The notes: generated by a model from the sequence alone, not told the origin. Shown: positions 9,054 through 50,184, counted from the first letter of the stretch. The stretch: DNA of 64,000 nucleotides from Escherichia coli (GCF_003018235.1 NZ_CP027437.1), one strand, 5' to 3'. Made by a program: numbers and translations.

Positions 9054-10100
9054 TCAGGCTTCCTCTTGTAACAATAGCGCGTTAAGTTCTTCCAGTACGC
9101 GCTGGGGAGTAATGTCGATCAAGCTCTGGTGATAACCCTCCGCAGCGTCACCTTTACGCACTTTGTGATAGCCGGTAATCAGGCGGATCACGCGTGCTTT
9201 ATGGGATAGCGGCGGTGTGAAGTCCGGGCTACTCGGACCATACAAGGCAACCAGCGGACGATTGAGCGCCGCCGCAACGTGCATCAGGCCAGAATCGTTA
9301 GTGACAATGGCTTTACAGGCTGTAATCAGGATAACCGCTTGATCAAGCTGTGTTTCCCCTGCCAGGTTCCGGCACCATGCCTGCTGCTCGGTATTTAAAG
9401 CGGCAAGAATCTCATTGCCCGCTTCATGATCTTTCGCCGAGCCAAACAGAACCACCTGATAACCTTCATCAATCAGCTGCTTTGCCAGCTCCGCATAGTG
9501 GTAGTGTGGCCAGCGTTTTGCCGGACCAAACTCCGCACCCGGGCAAAAGCCAATCATCGGACGTTCTGATGAAAGCGAAAATTGATTACAGGTATATGAT
9601 TTTTCACCTTCGCTCACCTGCAACTGCGGCCATAACAATGGCTGCGGCAGATCTTGTGCTGTACGCATAATGCCTTTGTCATAGGCCAGCGCGACATAGC
9701 GTTCCACCATTAGCGGCCAGGCTTCTTTATCGAGCACGCGTACATCGTTAAGTAAACCGTAGCGCATCTCGCCGCGCCAGCCGGTGCGATGAGGAATACC
9801 CGCGAAGAAAGGCACTAATGCGGATTTGAAGGAGTTGGGTAAGACGTAGGCGCGGTCGTAGCGCTTTTCACGCAGACTATGACCCAGTTTGCGGCGTTCG
9901 CCGATTTCCAGCGCTCCGTGACCGAGAGGCATAGGAATAGCTTCGTTAACTTCCGGCATCCGCGATAATAATGGACGGCACCATGCCGGTGCCATCACGT
10001 CGATTATCGCCTGGGGATAGCGCGCCTGGAGCGTGCGATAGAGACTTTGCGACATCATCATGTCGCCAACCCAAGACGGGCCGATCACCAGTATTTTCAT
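9054..10100 (-). CDS. waaF: LPS heptosyltransferase II
   Basis: 348 aa, MKILVIGPSWVGDMMMSQSLYRTL..., GT9; directly downstream of hldD. Confidence 0.9.
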   Translation of the reverse strand: MKILVIGPSWVGDMMMSQSLYRTLQARYPQAIIDVMAPAWCRPLLSRMPEVNEAIPMPLGHGALEIGERRKLGHSLREKRYDRAYVLPNSFKSALVPFFAGIPHRTGWRGEMRYGLLNDVRVLDKEAWPLMVERYVALAYDKGIMRTAQDLPQPLLWPQLQVSEGEKSYTCNQFSLSSERPMIGFCPGAEFGPAKRWPHYHYAELAKQLIDEGYQVVLFGSAKDHEAGNEILAALNTEQQAWCRNLAGETQLDQAVILITACKAIVTNDSGLMHVAAALNRPLVALYGPSSPDFTPPLSHKARVIRLITGYHKVRKGDAAEGYHQSLIDITPQRVLEELNALLLQEEA

Positions 10101-10109
10101 GCAGAGCTC

Positions 10110-11042
10110 TTATGCGTCGCGATTCAGCCAGGCCATGTATTCCGTTACACCTTCAGCAACGGTTTTGAACGGTTTATCGTAACCCGCCGCGCGCAGATTC
10201 GTCAGATCTGCCTGAGTGAACGCCTGGTAGCGGCCTTTCAGTTTATCCGGGAACGGAATGTATTCGATCTGGCCTTTCTTGTGATAAGCCAGCGTAGCAT
10301 CGGCTACCGCCTGGAAGGATTCCGCACGACCGGTGCCGAGGTTGAAGATGCCGGAAACGCCATTTTCCAGGAACCACAGGTTTACATCTGCCACGTCGCC
10401 TACGTAAACGAAGTCGCGTTTGAAGTTCTCGCTACCTTCAAACAGCTTCGGCGATTCACCGTTGTTAAGCTGAGTGTTGAGATGGAAAGCGACGCTCGCC
10501 ATGCTGCCTTTATGGCCTTCACGCGGTCCATAAACGTTGAAATAGCGGAAGCCAACAATCTGCGAGTTCGCTTCTGGCAGGATTTGACGAACATATTCAT
10601 CAAACAGGAATTTTGAGTAACCGTAGACGTTCAACGGTTTTTCGTACTCGCGGGATTCAATAAAGTCGGAGGTGCGACCGCCGTAAGTGGCCGCGGAAGA
10701 GGCATACAGGAACGGGATTTCGCGTTCCAGACAGTAGTGCAGCAGCTCTTTGGAGTATTGATAGTTGTTATCCATCATATACTTGCCATCCCACTCGGTG
10801 GTGGAAGAGCATGCGCCTTCGTGGAAAATCGCTTCGACATCACCGAACTCTTCGCCAGCCATAATCTGGATCAGGAAGTCTTCCTTATCCATATAGTCCG
10901 CGATATCCAGATCCACCAGGTTCACAAACTTGGTGCCGTCTTTCAGGTTGTCCACCACCAGAATATCGGTGATGCCTTTATCATTCAGGGCCTTAACGAT
11001 GTTGCTGCCGATAAAGCCCGCGCCGCCGGTAACGATGATCAT
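10110..11042 (-). CDS. hldD: ADP-L-glycero-D-manno-heptose 6-epimerase
   Basis: 310 aa, N-terminal Rossmann motif [16 protein letters not shown]; first gene of the hldD-waaF-waaC-waaL operon. Confidence 0.9.
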
Positions 11043-11330
11043 AACTGTAACCTTCGAATTATGGAGTCAGAGACAATCTCAGACACGAATGTCTGTAATC
11101 ATACCATCACATCCGAATCCCTTCAGCCCTTTACATAGAGGTGCAAGGATGCTAATTGCAACAAACTAGTTTGGGTTTTAGCTAGTCCTTCATGGCGGAT
11201 GTTGGTTTTGTATGTGAATAGTGCTTTAGTATCAATATTCCGATGTATGATAAATAACGGAAGCATTTGAATGGATAATATACAGTATACATTCTGTTAA
11301 TATTTATGATATAATTCTTTTTTTATATTA

Positions 11331-46238: not shown

Positions 46239-46438
46239 TCATCATTCCCCCAATGGCTGGCTAATTGTCAGCCATTTTTTAAACTATCTCAAAATTTGCG
46301 ATTTTTGAGAGAGTTTTAGTTATCTCTGTAGTCCTTGCCCGTAAATTCGTGATAGCCGTCGTAAAGCTGTTACCGACTGGCGAAGATTTCGCCAGTCACG
46401 TCTACCCTTGTTATACCTCACACCGCAAGGAGACGATC

Positions 46439-47977
46439 ATGACCAATAATCCCCCTTCAGCACAGATTAAGCCCGGCGAGTATGGTTTCCCCCTCAAGTT
46501 AAAAGCCCGCTACGACAACTTTATTGGCGGCGAATGGGTAGCCCCTGCCGACGGCGAGTATTACCAGAACCTGACGCCGGTGACCGGGCAGCTGCTGTGC
46601 GAAGTGGCGTCTTCGGGCAAACGAGATATCGATCTGGCGCTGGATGCTGCGCACAAAGTGAAAGATAAATGGGCGCATACCTCGGTGCAGGATCGCGCGG
46701 CGATTCTGTTTAAGATTGCCGATCGGATGGAGCAGAACCTCGAACTGTTAGCGACCGCTGAAACCTGGGATAACGGCAAACCCATTCGCGAAACCAGTGC
46801 TGCTGATGTGCCGCTGGCGATTGACCATTTTCGCTATTTTGCCTCGTGTATTCGGGCGCAGGAAGGCGGTATTAGTGAAGTGGATAGCGAAACTGTGGCT
46901 TATCACTTCCACGAACCGTTAGGCGTGGTGGGGCAGATTATTCCGTGGAACTTCCCGCTGCTGATGGCGAGCTGGAAAATGGCTCCCGCGCTGGCGGCGG
47001 GCAACTGTGTGGTGCTGAAACCCGCACGTCTTACCCCGCTTTCTGTACTGCTGCTAATGGAAATCGTCGGTGATTTACTGCCGCCGGGCGTGGTGAACGT
47101 GGTTAACGGCGCTGGTGGGGAAATTGGCGAATATCTGGCGACCTCGAAACGCATCGCCAAAGTGGCGTTTACCGGCTCAACGGAAGTGGGTCAACAAATT
47201 ATGCAATACGCCACGCAAAACATTATTCCGGTGACGCTGGAGCTGGGCGGCAAATCGCCAAATATCTTCTTTGCTGACGTGATGGATGAAGAAGATGCCT
47301 TTTTTGATAAAGCGCTGGAAGGCTTTGCACTGTTTGCCTTTAACCAGGGCGAAGTTTGCACCTGTCCAAGCCGTGCTTTAGTGCAGGAGTCTATCTACGA
47401 ACGCTTCATGGAACGCGCCATCCGCCGTGTTGAAAGTATTCGTAGCGGTAACCCGCTCGACAGCGTGACGCAAATGGGTGCGCAGGTATCTCACGGGCAA
47501 CTGGAAACCATCCTCAATTACATTGATATCGGCAAAAAAGAGGGCGCAGACGTGCTCACCGGCGGGCGGCGCAAGCTGCTGGAAGGCGAACTGAAAGACG
47601 GCTACTACCTCGAACCGACTATTTTGTTTGGTCAGAACAATATGCGGGTGTTCCAGGAGGAGATATTTGGCCCGGTGCTGGCGGTGACCACCTTCAAAAC
47701 GATGGAAGAAGCGCTGGAGCTGGCGAACGATACGCAATATGGCCTGGGCGCTGGCGTCTGGAGCCGCAACGGTAATCTGGCCTATAAGATGGGGCGCGGC
47801 ATTCAGGCTGGGCGCGTGTGGACCAACTGTTATCACGCTTACCCGGCACATGCGGCGTTTGGCGGCTACAAACAGTCGGGCATCGGACGCGAAACCCATA
47901 AGATGATGCTTGAGCATTACCAGCAAACCAAATGCCTGCTGGTGAGCTACTCGGATAAACCGTTGGGGCTGTTCTGA
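46439..47977 (+). CDS. aldB: Aldehyde dehydrogenase B
   Basis: ORF track 542 aa; internal ATG at 46439 ([22 protein letters not shown]) gives 512 aa; aldehyde dehydrogenase catalytic motifs (ELGGKSP, CTCPSR). Confidence 0.9.
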
Positions 47978-47981
47978 TGTG

Positions 47982-48020
47982 AAAGGCAGGCAACGTTAAT
48001 AGTTGTCTGCCTTTGTTTTA
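47982..48020. terminator. Putative bidirectional terminator between convergent aldB and the 359-aa nuclease-like gene
   Basis: AAAGGCAGGCAAC-gttaata-GTTGTCTGCCTTT (13-bp stem, 1 mismatch) followed by a T-rich run. Confidence 0.5.
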
Positions 48021-49097
48021 GTTGTATAAAGCGGCAGTCGCTTTTAACTCATCGCTGAAAGAATAAATATCATCGAGAGATTCAATAGGATGGCGGGTTT
48101 CGTTTTTCTCTAAGTCAAATAAACCAATATATTTTTGATTTCGATTGAAATGTAATCTACAGAGTGGCTTTCGATTATTGTCATCTACAAGTATACCAAA
48201 ATAGCTTTTTGTATCTCTGTGGACTATTCGTGGTGCATCAAGCACTACGCGAACTATAGCTTTAACAATATGAAATCCTTCAAGTTCCTCCATAGTAGTA
48301 GCAATATCGGTTTCTTCTTTATTAATACATTCTACTTCCTCATTGTGTGAATTCGAATCAATTACAGATAATGACCCACCACCTATTGCCGATTTCAATC
48401 TTTCGTTTATTTGAGAGTTAATATATTGATTGGCAGCTTTCTTTGTTAATTTTGCAAACGTATCTTTTACCTTTTGTGTTAACATACCTTCATAAATTCT
48501 TGCTGCAAAGAATTTTACAAAATCCTCTTCAGGATTATTCATTTGTGCATGGAGAACTTTTTTAATTAAACTAACATATTTTAATTCACCTGCAGCATTA
48601 ATTATTGATTCCAAATCAAATGCTGATTTAGTAAGCTTCTTTATCTCGGGAACAACTGTTTCATCTAAGTCAAGTAGATCTATCTCAAGAAATGGTTTTT
48701 CATCCATTTTATTAGGTGCTTCTAAATCAGTAAAAAATTTATAAACTTGTCCATTGGTTAGAATAGATATTCTTGCATTTGTTACATGAAAGTATCGAAA
48801 AAGCTGTGAAGCATGATTTATATTTAGAGGATCGCCAATTTTTTTGCATTCAATGAGAATCTGAACCTCGCTATTTTTTAAGATTGCATAGTCAATCTTT
48901 TCACCTTTCTTCGTTCCAATATCGCATACAAACTCTGGGATAACTTCGGTAGGATCAAAGACATCATAACCTAACACATTGTTAATGAACGGCATTACGA
49001 AAGCATTTTTGGTAGCTTCCTCCGTTTCAATGACTCCGGCTTGTTGTTTTATTTTTGCGGATAATGAATTCAGCTTATCTATAAACTCCATAGACAT
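48018..49097 (-). CDS. Hypothetical protein with N-terminal HsdR_N-like PD-(D/E)xK nuclease domain and an uncharacterised C-terminal domain
   Basis: 359 aa; AAGGAG Shine-Dalgarno 6 nt upstream; N-terminus has the HsdR_N pattern (TEEATKNAFVMPFINNVLGYD, then IDYAIL ... ILIECKK as D...ExK); gene is markedly AT-rich. Confidence 0.6.
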   Translation of the reverse strand: MSMEFIDKLNSLSAKIKQQAGVIETEEATKNAFVMPFINNVLGYDVFDPTEVIPEFVCDIGTKKGEKIDYAILKNSEVQILIECKKIGDPLNINHASQLFRYFHVTNARISILTNGQVYKFFTDLEAPNKMDEKPFLEIDLLDLDETVVPEIKKLTKSAFDLESIINAAGELKYVSLIKKVLHAQMNNPEEDFVKFFAARIYEGMLTQKVKDTFAKLTKKAANQYINSQINERLKSAIGGGSLSVIDSNSHNEEVECINKEETDIATTMEELEGFHIVKAIVRVVLDAPRIVHRDTKSYFGILVDDNNRKPLCRLHFNRNQKYIGLFDLEKNETRHPIESLDDIYSFSDELKATAALYN

Positions 49098-49571
49098 TAT
49101 AACTCCTTTTATATATATTTAATAAAAATGCGTTTTATAAAAATATAGAAAATATTTATATATTAACGCGTTATCATTGGTCATAGTTAATGTATAACAC
49201 ACAAAAAATAATGTTTGCACATTGTAAATACAATGGTGAAACAAACTTGATATTTATCAAGAAAATAAAACAATGTCTTTTATTGGTTGTTTTAAACGTT
49301 CAATGAATACGAGTTGGAGCTATAGCAAGACTAGCTTCGATATCGCATGGATAATCTAATACAGATTTTTTAACACCTAATACTATGAGTTATATGTAAA
49401 TTGCGAGCATCCTCGCATCTTTTCAACAAGTTACTGCACACCGTTATTCTCCTTCCGAGCGGCATTCCTGAGTCAACTTTATCCCCCTGACGGCCCATAT
49501 AAATCGCGCTATCGTGATTGTTATCGCTAATTGTGTGTGTATCGTGTGTATAATCATGGAAGGGCAGGGAT

Positions 49572-49757
49572 GTGAAAAGTGCAGACGTGATCGCCATCCT
49601 GAAGCAGCATGGCTGGGAACATATTCGAACCCGTGGCAGTCATCATCAGTTCCGCCACCCTGTTCATCCGGGTCTGGTGACGGTTCCGCACCCTAAAAAA
49701 GATATTAAGCCCGGTACGCTGGCGCAAATTGGGCGTCAGGCTGGTTTAACATTTTAA
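49572..49757 (+). CDS. hicA: HicA-family toxin (mRNA interferase)
   Basis: 61 aa; HicA motif HGWEHIRTRGSHHQFRHP...VPHPKKDIKPGTLAQIGRQAGL; GTG start assumed, exact start uncertain. Confidence 0.75.
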   Translation: MKSADVIAILKQHGWEHIRTRGSHHQFRHPVHPGLVTVPHPKKDIKPGTLAQIGRQAGLTF

Positions 49758-49773
49758 AATTTCAGGAGGCAAT

Positions 49774-50184
49774 ATGTTTTATCCCGCCTATATCCACAGT
49801 GATCCTGACGGCAGCGCCAGCGGTTTTTTCCCTGATGTTCCAGGCTGTTATTTTGCTGGTGATACGCTGGACAACGCTTTCCAGGATGCGCGAAGTGCAC
49901 TGGTCGCGCACTTCGAAACCTTATGCGAGATGAATGAAGAGTTGCCGCTTCCAGGCTCTGTGGAAACACATCTGGTCCAGCGTGCGCAGGACTTTATTGG
50001 CGGGCAATGGTTGCTGGTGGATATCAATATGAATCAGTTCGAAGGTCGGGCTGAACGTATCAATATTACGATGCCGAAAAGATTACTGAACAAGATTGAT
50101 ACCTACGTGCGCAATAACCCAGACTACGCCAACAGAAGTGCGTTTCTGGCGGAAGCTGCCCGGCGTGTATTGCCGGGCGCTTAA
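49774..50184 (+). CDS. hicB: HicB-family antitoxin (RNase H-like fold with C-terminal ribbon-helix-helix)
   Basis: 136 aa; AGGAGG Shine-Dalgarno; C-terminal RHH-like segment (ITMPKRLLNKIDTYV...SAFLAEAARRVL); 16 bp after hicA. Confidence 0.75.
   Translation: MFYPAYIHSDPDGSASGFFPDVPGCYFAGDTLDNAFQDARSALVAHFETLCEMNEELPLPGSVETHLVQRAQDFIGGQWLLVDINMNQFEGRAERINITMPKRLLNKIDTYVRNNPDYANRSAFLAEAARRVLPGA

What the first reader, a model, noticed from the sequence alone, without database searches (positions are those of the whole stretch)
48018..49097. AT-rich standalone HsdR_N-like PD-(D/E)xK nuclease gene beside a HicAB module: candidate uncharacterised single-gene defence determinant
The 359-aa protein has a confident start (AAGGAG Shine-Dalgarno) and its first ~110 residues follow the type I restriction HsdR N-terminal nuclease pattern (TEEATKNAFVMPFINNVLGYD, then IDYAIL and ILIECKK as the D...ExK catalytic core). 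The remaining ~250 residues (helical linker, then GFHIVKAIVRVVLDAPRIVHRDTKSYFGILVDDNNRKPLCRLHF...) match nothing I can name. The gene is far more AT-rich than its neighbours, sits in a block that replaces K-12 yiaT-yiaW, and is divergent from a hicA-hicB pair. A lone restriction-type nuclease fold with an unknown sensor or effector domain, acquired horizontally beside a toxin-antitoxin, is typical of phage-defence or abortive-infection genes.
Basis: partly seen in the sequence, partly recalled or inferred. Interest (0 to 1): 0.75.

Follow-up and report, generated by a model that had tools for sequence, protein, structure and literature searches.

The report
Orphan restriction-type nuclease, likely phage defence
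This is an intact gene for a lone DNA-cutting enzyme from a very large, mobile but untested protein family that temperate phages carry next to their repressor gene, so it is a reasonable though unproven candidate for a single-gene anti-phage defence.

Summary
A 359-aa ORF lies at 48018-49097 on the minus strand, with an AAGGAG ribosome-binding site and about 30% GC against about 55% in the flanks. Its N-terminus is an HsdR/Type IIG-type PD-(D/E)xK nuclease with an invariant D69...E83-x-K85 and a QxxxY motif. Its C-terminal domain matches no Pfam family and no solved structure convincingly.

The protein is not unique. It is an ordinary full-length member of a huge family (PHROG 4225 "endonuclease"; over 5,000 50%-identity clusters). 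NCBI's name, "type I restriction endonuclease", is misleading: there is no translocase domain and no hsdM/hsdS.

The gene is a 1.4-kb presence/absence cassette found in 189 of 5,426 complete E. coli genomes. hicAB occurs without it, so the two are independent modules.

Support for a defence role:
- Homologues have lower GC than their host almost everywhere.
- They are usually solitary, with no methyltransferase among the annotated neighbours examined.
- In eight of ten annotated temperate phages they sit just downstream of the repressor gene.
- Some relatives are fused to RAMA or TerD domains.

Against it, I found no PADLOC full-length match, no clear enrichment next to known defence genes and no experimental paper. 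Verdict: a plausible, untested defence nuclease of moderate interest.

The parts
48018..49097 (-). CDS of the 359-aa nuclease (stop codon at 48018-48020). RefSeq product WP_000061477.1, annotated 'type I restriction endonuclease'.
   Evidence: ORF list; identical annotated gene in E. coli strain MEW; full-length match to PHROG 4225, E=3e-130.
48678..49097 (-). Residues 1-140: HsdR/Type IIG-type PD-(D/E)xK nuclease domain. Conserved features are the TEEATK helix (E26, E27, K30), E55, D69, E83-x-K85 and Q98-x-x-x-Y102.
48378..48677 (-). Residues 141-240: helical middle domain (helices 146-153, 162-187, 191-201, 208-238). It resembles the helical connector that follows the nuclease domain in Type IIG enzymes.
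48315..48377 (-). Residues 241-261: low-confidence linker of variable length and acidic/polar composition.
   Evidence: pLDDT below 50 for residues 243-259; gappy, unconserved alignment columns.
48021..48314 (-). Residues 262-359: family-specific C-terminal alpha-beta5-alpha domain. Conserved residues are T267, T268, E271, D295, D305 and R314. I propose it is the DNA- or target-recognition module.
49103..49108 (-). Shine-Dalgarno AAGGAG, 5 nt upstream of the ATG.
   Evidence: Read directly from the sequence.
49098..49395 (-). AT-rich (27-31% GC) upstream region that belongs to the cassette. The promoter is presumed to be here. H-NS binding is a possibility inferred from composition only.
   Evidence: Composition. 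The region is absent, together with the ORF, from hicAB-positive strains that lack the nuclease. The consensus scan found no strong minus-strand sigma-70 site here.
47982..48014 (.). A 13-bp-stem hairpin between the convergent aldB and nuclease genes, likely a bidirectional terminator. It is part of the cassette.
   Evidence: Terminator scan and inverted repeat I5.
47979..49395 (.). The approximately 1.4-kb presence/absence cassette (hairpin, ORF and upstream region). In strain THO-008 a roughly 110-bp REP-like sequence occupies this site.
   Evidence: Alignment with L091. 189 of 5,426 genomes carry the cassette. No terminal inverted or direct repeats mark the ends.
49572..50184 (+). The neighbouring hicA (49572-49757) and hicB (49774-50184) toxin-antitoxin pair. 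It is adjacent but is an independent module.
   Evidence: ORFs; annotation; hicAB is present without the nuclease in other E. coli.

Best explanation
The gene encodes a catalytically competent, free-standing DNA endonuclease. In effect it is the nuclease-plus-helical-connector module of Type I/Type IIG restriction enzymes, cut loose from any methyltransferase or motor and joined to a small family-specific C-terminal alpha/beta domain.

Its most likely job is to exclude foreign DNA, that is, phage defence or superinfection exclusion. The family travels as a one-gene cassette on prophages, plasmids and small chromosomal insertions.

Proposed mechanism, with each step marked:
1. Shown: the active site (E55, D69, E83-x-K85, Q98...Y102) is intact and under strong constraint.
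2. Inferred: the helical domain and C-terminal domain provide dimerisation and target recognition.
3. Inferred: no methyltransferase appears among the annotated neighbours examined, so self DNA must be spared some other way. Either the enzyme recognises a feature found only on invader DNA (a Type IV-like, modification-dependent mode), or it stays inactive until infection.
4. Inferred: cleavage of the invading genome, or of all DNA in an abortive mode, stops the phage.

In this E. coli strain the copy is a solitary AT-rich cassette between aldB and hicAB. It may be H-NS-silenced under laboratory conditions, which I infer from composition only.
For: - Mobility: 189 of 5,426 E. coli genomes, as a clean 1.4-kb indel. 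GC is below that of the host in 61 of 69 loci, with a median difference of -10 points. No partner gene is conserved. Relatives occur on 48 plasmid records, 19 phage records and at least 525 IMG/VR contigs.
- Position in phages: the gene lies just downstream of the repressor gene on the same strand, in several followed by the integrase, in phages of Corynebacterium, Acetoanaerobium, Fusobacterium, Enterococcus, S. pneumoniae, Terrisporobacter, Clostridium and Klebsiella.
- IMG/VR loci: the downstream contig end lies within 3.5 kb in 37 of 80 loci, against 14 for the upstream end. In 33 of 80 a recognisable integrase, repressor or ImmA-like gene is adjacent on the same strand.
- Defence or toxin neighbours on mobile elements: HicAB plus an anti-CRISPR candidate; a DUF4041 protein and a RES toxin; RES; an AAA-ATPase/UvrD pair that I read as Gabija-like (a reading from the annotated names, not a test), plus RelBE; Fic; SIR2.
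- Fusions of relatives to RAMA (a domain associated with restriction enzymes and methylases) and to TerD.
- No methyltransferase appears in any annotated context examined.
Against: - No member matches any PADLOC v2 model at full length. The only hits are partial (REase_MTase_IIG, nuclease part) or non-significant (PDC-S26, E=0.032).
- In 44 dereplicated chromosomal loci, 24 have no other low-GC gene within two genes either side.
- Of 20 low-GC neighbours scanned, only one pair, HigBA-like, hit PADLOC.
- Several megaplasmid copies sit among metabolic genes.
- The C-terminal domain resembles no known reader of modified bases.
- I found no experimental phenotype for any member. The only mention is a correlation in C. 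jejuni, where the authors state the role is unclear.
- In Enterobacter the gene occupies the same aldB neighbourhood in 19 of the 24 contigs read. That could mean long residence rather than recent mobility.
Confidence: 0.5

Rival explanations
1. The nuclease serves the mobile element's own DNA transactions. Examples would be help with excision or integration, replication or recombination, degradation of host DNA at induction, or control of the lysogeny switch together with the neighbouring repressor and ImmA-type protease. On this view chromosomal copies such as the E. coli one are left-over cargo.
For: The gene is tightly embedded in repressor-(ImmA)-nuclease-integrase modules, often only 3-44 nt from the repressor or ImmA gene. 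In Fusobacterium and Enterococcus phages, RecT/exonuclease genes lie on the other side of the switch.
Against: Most homologues are solitary chromosomal or plasmid genes with no phage genes nearby, yet they keep every catalytic residue. Related phages evidently do without the gene, since only 19 of 50,697 phage records carry it. That pattern fits an accessory gene rather than a core function. In Porphyromonas phages it sits in an accessory-gene cluster between head and tail genes instead.
Confidence: 0.15
2. It is a selfish, homing-type or addiction-type nuclease gene. It spreads or persists by cutting cassette-free alleles or genomes and gives the host no benefit.
For: It is a clean single-gene indel between conserved genes, with no transposase, integrase or repeats. 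It is a solitary low-GC insert in 24 of 44 loci. Identity across phyla is very high (55-70% between E. coli, Pseudomonas and Actinobacteria), implying frequent transfer.
Against: Insertion sites are unrelated between taxa, so there is no conserved target gene. There is no intron or intein context. A recurrent fixed slot in prophage immunity regions fits cargo selected for a lysogen phenotype. An addiction mechanism would need an antidote, and none is conserved.
Confidence: 0.1
3. It is a housekeeping or stress-related DNA repair or processing nuclease of the host, structure-specific rather than directed at invaders.
Against: It is present in only 3.5% of complete E. coli genomes. Composition is foreign nearly everywhere. 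It occurs on phages and plasmids. It never sits in an operon with repair genes.
Confidence: 0.07
4. It is a non-cutting decoy or regulator. An HsdR-N-like protein might bind Type I methyltransferase cores or DNA and so modulate restriction, acting as an anti-restriction or restriction-alleviation factor carried by phages.
For: It resembles only the N-terminal part of HsdR, and it is carried by phages.
Against: Invariance of D69, E83, K85, E55, Q98 and Y102 across the family is what one expects of an active enzyme, not a mimic. In the repressor slot it would be made in lysogens, not early in infection, when anti-restriction is needed.
Confidence: 0.05

Closest known systems
N-terminal endonuclease domain of Type I restriction subunit HsdR (EcoR124I HsdR, PDB 2w00; HsdR fragment 3h1t; Pfam PF04313/PF13588)
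   Different: The protein has no SF2 translocase domains and no C-terminal HsdM-contact domain, and there are no hsdM/hsdS genes nearby. At 359 aa it is far shorter than the 842-residue HsdR chain of 2w00. NCBI's product name 'type I restriction endonuclease' is therefore not a functional description.
Type IIG/IIL restriction-modification enzymes BpuSI (3s1s) and DrdV (7lo5); I recall MmeI as a member of the same class
   Different: Only positions 61-217 of that 1,011-position profile are matched. The methyltransferase and target-recognition domains are absent and are replaced by an unrelated 100-residue alpha/beta domain.
Type IV (modification-dependent) restriction enzymes and other one-gene PD-(D/E)xK defence nucleases (Mrr, Upx, Shedu SduA)
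   Different: There is no significant PADLOC match to Upx, Shedu, Mrr or any other model. The C-terminal domain is not recognisable as an SRA, EVE/YTH or Mrr-N winged-helix reader. Dependence on DNA modification is untested.
Exclusion or defence genes expressed from the prophage immunity region (lambda rexAB downstream of cI; prophage-mediated defence genes between repressor and integrase in actinobacteriophages). This comparison rests on established knowledge, not on a test here.
   Same: The genomic slot and orientation match: immediately downstream of the repressor on the same strand, often followed by the integrase.
   Different: The proteins are unrelated, and no exclusion phenotype has been shown for this family.

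Membership tests
HsdR_N-type PD-(D/E)xK nuclease domain (PF04313/PF13588) | Match to the family profile | tested here: met
   HSDR_N_2 over residues 26-123, E=1.8e-7; HSDR_N over residues 52-129, E=1.9e-7. The same domains are precomputed for all 120 listed homologues.
HsdR_N-type PD-(D/E)xK nuclease domain (PF04313/PF13588) | Catalytic D...(D/E)xK triad and the following QxxxY helix | tested here: met
   D69 and E83 are invariant. K85, Q98 and Y102 are conserved in at least 90% of 78 sequences.
HsdR_N-type PD-(D/E)xK nuclease domain (PF04313/PF13588) | Structural similarity to solved HsdR or Type IIG nuclease domains | tested here: met
Type I restriction enzyme (the HsdR subunit, as the RefSeq name implies) | SF2 helicase/translocase domains in the same polypeptide | tested here: not met
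   The protein is 359 aa and Pfam finds no ResIII, DEAD or Helicase_C domain.
Type I restriction enzyme (the HsdR subunit, as the RefSeq name implies) | Adjacent hsdM and hsdS genes | tested here: not met
   The neighbours are aldB and hicAB. No hsdM or hsdS appears in any of the annotated homologue contexts.
Type IIG restriction-modification enzyme | Fused N6-adenine methyltransferase and target-recognition domains | tested here: not met
   Only positions 61-217 of the 1,011-position PADLOC profile are matched. Pfam finds no methyltransferase domain.
Type IV modification-dependent restriction enzyme | Nuclease without a cognate methyltransferase | tested here: met
   No methyltransferase is adjacent here or in the annotated contexts. 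In 24 of 44 loci the gene is a solitary insert.
Type IV modification-dependent restriction enzyme | A recognisable domain that binds modified bases | tested here: inconclusive
Type IV modification-dependent restriction enzyme | Cleaves modified DNA but not unmodified DNA | not testable with these tools
   This needs biochemistry or plaque assays with phages whose DNA is modified and unmodified.
Any defence system in PADLOC-DB v2.0.0 | Significant full-length match to a system protein model | tested here: not met
   The only hits are a partial one to REase_MTase_IIG (2.7e-7) and PDC-S26 at E=0.032.
Defence-island gene (guilt by association) | Homologues enriched next to known defence genes | tested here: inconclusive
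   Only the low-GC neighbours within two genes either side were scanned. One of 20 gave a hit, and it was HigBA-like. About half of the eight plasmid contexts have toxin or defence-type neighbours. No genome-wide statistic with a background was possible.
PHROG 4225 ('endonuclease') | Full-length profile match | tested here: met
   E=3e-130, residues 3-356 against profile positions 2-352 of 357.
Three-gene module with HicAB | Obligate co-occurrence of the nuclease with hicA and hicB | tested here: not met
   hicAB is present without the nuclease in other E. coli. HicB lies within 8 kb in only 5 of the 72 loci whose homologue was clustered. The Porphyromonas phage HicA is only 33% identical to this one.

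The most novel reading that the evidence does not exclude
The family is a previously unrecognised and extremely widespread one-gene anti-phage system. It would pair an HsdR-type nuclease with a new kind of C-terminal sensor or DNA-reader domain. Temperate phages of Actinobacteria, Firmicutes, Fusobacteria, Bacteroidetes and Proteobacteria would place it in the repressor-proximal slot to protect their lysogens, and it would also circulate as a naked 1.4-kb cassette in chromosomes such as this E. coli.
Probability: 0.4. Interest if true: 0.65.

Novelty: new variant of a known kind. Interest (0 to 1): 0.48.

Why it matters
If the defence reading is right, a family with thousands of sequence clusters in bacteria, an archaeon, plasmids and prophages would move from a misleading automatic name ("type I restriction endonuclease") to a defined one-gene immunity function. 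Its C-terminal domain would then be a new recognition module worth studying for what it senses. The fixed position beside prophage repressors would add a cross-phylum example of lysogens being armed by their prophage. If it is wrong, the result still corrects the annotation: this is not a Type I enzyme, and it is not functionally tied to HicAB.

Tried and rejected
- Sequence searches of the PDB, with the single protein and with profiles of the whole family and of the C-terminal domain, found nothing usable.
- NCBIfam gave only noise.
- A Pfam scan of 50 C-terminal domains gave nothing.
- Foldseek against AFDB50 with the C-terminal domain returned only the same family, so it revealed no new domain architectures.
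- Looking up a 50%-cluster representative (P0125) for genomic context returned a 1.4-kb contig, a wasted look-up.
- My first gene caller, which took the longest ORFs, produced antisense artefacts in high-GC loci (seen). I replaced it with a GC3-aware caller plus gap filling.
- I dropped the plan to paste about 55,000 residues of neighbours into PADLOC. Instead I scanned only the 20 low-GC neighbours, so native-GC neighbours were never scanned.
- Literature searches for COG4748, PF13588, phrog_4225, WP_000061477, 'HsdR-like' with 'anti-phage', and 'Prophage Lp2 protein 6' found no functional study.
- Rfam found no RNA family in the cassette or intergenic region.
- No terminal repeats or target-site duplication mark the cassette ends.
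- I rejected HicAB as a functional partner.
- I rejected the RefSeq label 'Type I enzyme'.

Full report

Yes. AAGGAG lies at 49103-49108 on the minus strand, 5 nt before the start codon.

GC is 0.27-0.35 over 48000-49400 and 0.52-0.57 in the genes on either side. The gene converges on aldB, and the two share a 13-bp-stem hairpin at 47982-48014. It diverges from hicA (49572-49757) and hicB (49774-50184).

A K-12-type strain has yiaW-yiaV-yiaU-yiaT between aldB and sgbE. This strain has nuclease-hicAB-GH127-MFS-AraC instead. One caveat: most homologues begin at the residue aligned to M3, so the second ATG could be the real start.

**2. What the protein is**

- *N-terminal domain.* Pfam finds only the N-terminal HsdR nuclease families: HSDR_N_2 over residues 26-123 (E=1.8e-7) and HSDR_N over residues 52-129 (E=1.9e-7).
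- *Conservation.* I aligned 78 homologues that share only 37-55% identity with this protein, apart from two close enterobacterial ones. K30, E55, D69, E83, L99, G116 and E271 are invariant. K85, Q98, R101 and Y102 are conserved in at least 90%. So the D...ExK triad is intact, as is the QxxxY helix that follows it, a motif I recall being described for EcoR124I HsdR as a RecB-family motif.
- *Structure.* An AlphaFold2 model built on that alignment is confident (mean pLDDT 92.4). It shows three parts: a nuclease domain (about residues 1-140), a helical domain (146-238) and, after a disordered linker (243-259), an alpha-beta5-alpha domain (262-359).
- *C-terminal domain.* Modelled alone it is also confident (pLDDT 91.9), but it has only weak, generic fold matches with Z no higher than 6.6: Med17, the MotA C-terminal DNA-binding domain, YdhG/frataxin-like proteins and YjbR. 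It has no Pfam match and no PDB sequence match.

**3. It is not an orphan**

The whole protein matches PHROG 4225 ("endonuclease") end to end (E=3e-130). A search of 1.84 billion cluster representatives finds 5,266 clusters at E no higher than 1e-3 and 1,210 at E no higher than 1e-30. Most listed hits are 350-390 aa and match over almost the whole query. Close homologues (78-85% identity) fill Enterobacter, Citrobacter and Salmonella.

Relatives at 55-70% identity occur in Pseudomonas, Aeromonas, Vibrio, Arthrobacter and many other Actinobacteria. An archaeal member appears in AFDB.

[quoted passage not shown] The first name is wrong as a functional statement. The protein has no translocase domain, and there is no hsdM or hsdS here or in any annotated context I examined.

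**4. Population genetics in E. coli**

The gene is present in 189 of 5,426 complete genomes, always on the chromosome and always at this site. Other strains have aldB-hicAB-GH127 without it (H66), or aldB-GH127, or the K-12 arrangement.

Alignment with strain THO-008 delimits a cassette of about 1.4 kb (roughly 47979-49395), made up of the hairpin, the ORF and a 300-bp AT-rich upstream region. In THO-008 a roughly 110-bp REP-like sequence takes its place. No terminal repeats mark the ends. HicAB is therefore an independent neighbour, not a partner.

In Enterobacter asburiae the 78%-identical homologue sits in the same aldB-yiaU-yiaT neighbourhood in 19 of the 24 contigs read. The site is either an old residence or a recurrent hotspot.

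**5. Context elsewhere**

*Chromosomal loci.*
- In 80 genome loci no neighbouring gene family is shared by more than nine loci, and those that share belong to related taxa.
- The gene's GC is more than 5 points below that of its flanks in 61 of 69 loci, with a median difference of -10 points.
- In 24 of 44 dereplicated loci no other low-GC gene lies within two genes either side, so the gene is a solitary insert.
- Of 20 low-GC neighbours scanned against PADLOC, only a HigBA-like pair matched. NCBIfam named almost none of the ten I submitted.
- This is a limited test. Native-GC neighbours were not scanned and I had no background set. It gives no support for defence-island enrichment.

*Plasmids.* About half of eight contexts contain toxin or defence-type neighbours:
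- a DUF4041 protein and a RES toxin;
- RES;
- an AAA-ATPase/UvrD-helicase pair, which I read as Gabija-like from the annotated names, plus RelBE;
- Fic;
- SIR2.

The rest are metabolic or unannotated.

*Phages.* This is the strongest pattern.
- In eight of ten annotated temperate phages the homologue is co-directional with, and just downstream of, the repressor gene. These are Corynebacterium Juicebox, Acetoanaerobium ANDSL2_ph1, Fusobacterium FNU_1P, Enterococcus EG-TP1, S. pneumoniae IPP25, Terrisporobacter TPELB_ph1, Clostridium CWou-2020a and Klebsiella KpF5. The common order is repressor-(ImmA protease)-nuclease-integrase.
- The ninth record, Lacticaseibacillus P7.1, has no functional annotation.
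- In Porphyromonas phages the gene lies in an accessory-gene cluster with HicAB and an anti-CRISPR candidate. That HicA is only 33% identical to the E. coli one, so the adjacency arose independently.
- IMG/VR holds at least 525 viral contigs with a relative. In the 80 best, the contig end downstream of the gene is within 3.5 kb in 37, against 14 for the upstream end.
- With a small seed set, 33 of those 80 have an integrase downstream, or a repressor or ImmA-like gene adjacent, on the same strand.

From established phage biology, genes in that slot are transcribed in lysogens and are typically exclusion or defence functions. Lambda rexAB is the classic example.

**6. Fusions**

Some relatives carry an N-terminal TerD domain (E=7e-26) or a C-terminal RAMA domain (E=1.1e-13). 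RAMA is a domain associated with restriction enzymes and adenine methylases. Both fit a role in restriction or stress defence on DNA.

**7. Mechanism**

*Shown:* a conserved, complete nuclease active site; single-gene mobility; no methyltransferase among the annotated neighbours examined; and expression-slot logic in prophages.

*Inferred:* an unprotected, active, sequence-specific nuclease would be lethal to its host. So the enzyme must either recognise something absent from host DNA (a Type IV-like, modification-dependent mode) or be held inactive until infection. The helical and C-terminal domains would supply dimerisation and recognition. I cannot choose between these two modes.

I put 0.5 on "defence or exclusion nuclease" overall. 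Rivals are a role in the mobile element's own life cycle (0.15), a selfish homing or addiction element (0.10), host DNA repair (0.07) and a non-catalytic decoy (0.05). The remainder is unassigned.

**8. Literature**

I found no functional study. A C. jejuni comparative paper lists a gene of this name and size in a phage-resistant strain that is absent from a sensitive one, and calls its role unclear (PMC8713573). A proteomics paper detects the strain-specific "prophage Lp2 protein 6" as protein (PMC3845652). I did not verify either gene as a homologue by sequence. A Tn7-cargo survey counts COG4748 among restriction endonucleases (PMC8649781). That COG4748 corresponds to this family is my recollection, not a test.

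**9. Verdict**

The gene is an ordinary member of a catalogued but uncharacterised family. As a kind of system it would be a new variant of restriction-type nuclease defence, carrying a novel recognition domain. Interest is moderate. The family's size and its repressor-proximal slot across phyla make it a good experimental target, but nothing here is mechanistically surprising and the defence role is unproven.

Noticed in passing
window 50256-~54700, compared with L184 13145-13438: K-12-type strains keep a truncated AraC-family pseudogene next to sgbE. This suggests the GH127-MFS-AraC block of this window once occupied that site and was replaced by yiaW-yiaT, or the reverse.
   Followed up: partly
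L091 about 580-690, corresponding to window 47979-49395: In hicAB-positive strains that lack the nuclease, a roughly 110-bp REP-like sequence (GCCTGATGCGACGCTTACGCG...) sits where the 1.4-kb cassette is in this window.
   Followed up: partly
window 49572-50184: The hicA/hicB pair is itself polymorphic. Some E. coli have aldB-GH127 with neither hicAB nor the nuclease, for example EC958.
   Followed up: no
L084-L089 (Enterobacter asburiae), gene at 10001-11077: The 78%-identical homologue lies beside MipA (yiaT-like), a LysR regulator and aldB-selB-selA. This is the same chromosomal neighbourhood as in E. coli, and 19 of the 24 contigs read share it. It points to an old residence or a shared insertion hotspot.
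   Followed up: partly
P0123, P0220, P0243; P0126; P0122, P0144, P0192: Longer relatives are fused to an N-terminal TerD domain or a C-terminal RAMA domain. A third recurrent C-terminal extension of about 110 aa has no significant Pfam match; the best is SeqA_C at E=0.25.
   Followed up: partly
L002 5247-7074 (Porphyromonas phage 019b): HicA, HicB and the nuclease homologue are consecutive and co-directional, with an annotated anti-CRISPR candidate 1 kb downstream, all between head and tail genes. HicA is only 33% identical to the E. coli HicA.
   Followed up: yes
L098 8384-11976; L187 7465-8469; L096 4690-6480: On plasmids the homologue sits next to an AAA-ATPase/UvrD-helicase pair (Gabija-like by my reading of the names), a SIR2-family protein, and a DUF4041 protein.
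   Followed up: no
plasmid hits H58-H64 (Borrelia/Borreliella, 20-36 kb plasmids): At least 21 Borrelia-group plasmid records encode 28-30%-identical relatives covering residues 3-306, also annotated 'type I restriction endonuclease'. Their C-terminal part appears to differ.
   Followed up: no
window 46349-47977: The mechanical ORF for aldB starts at an upstream GTG (542 aa), whereas RefSeq annotates 512 aa. This is only a difference in the called start.
   Followed up: no
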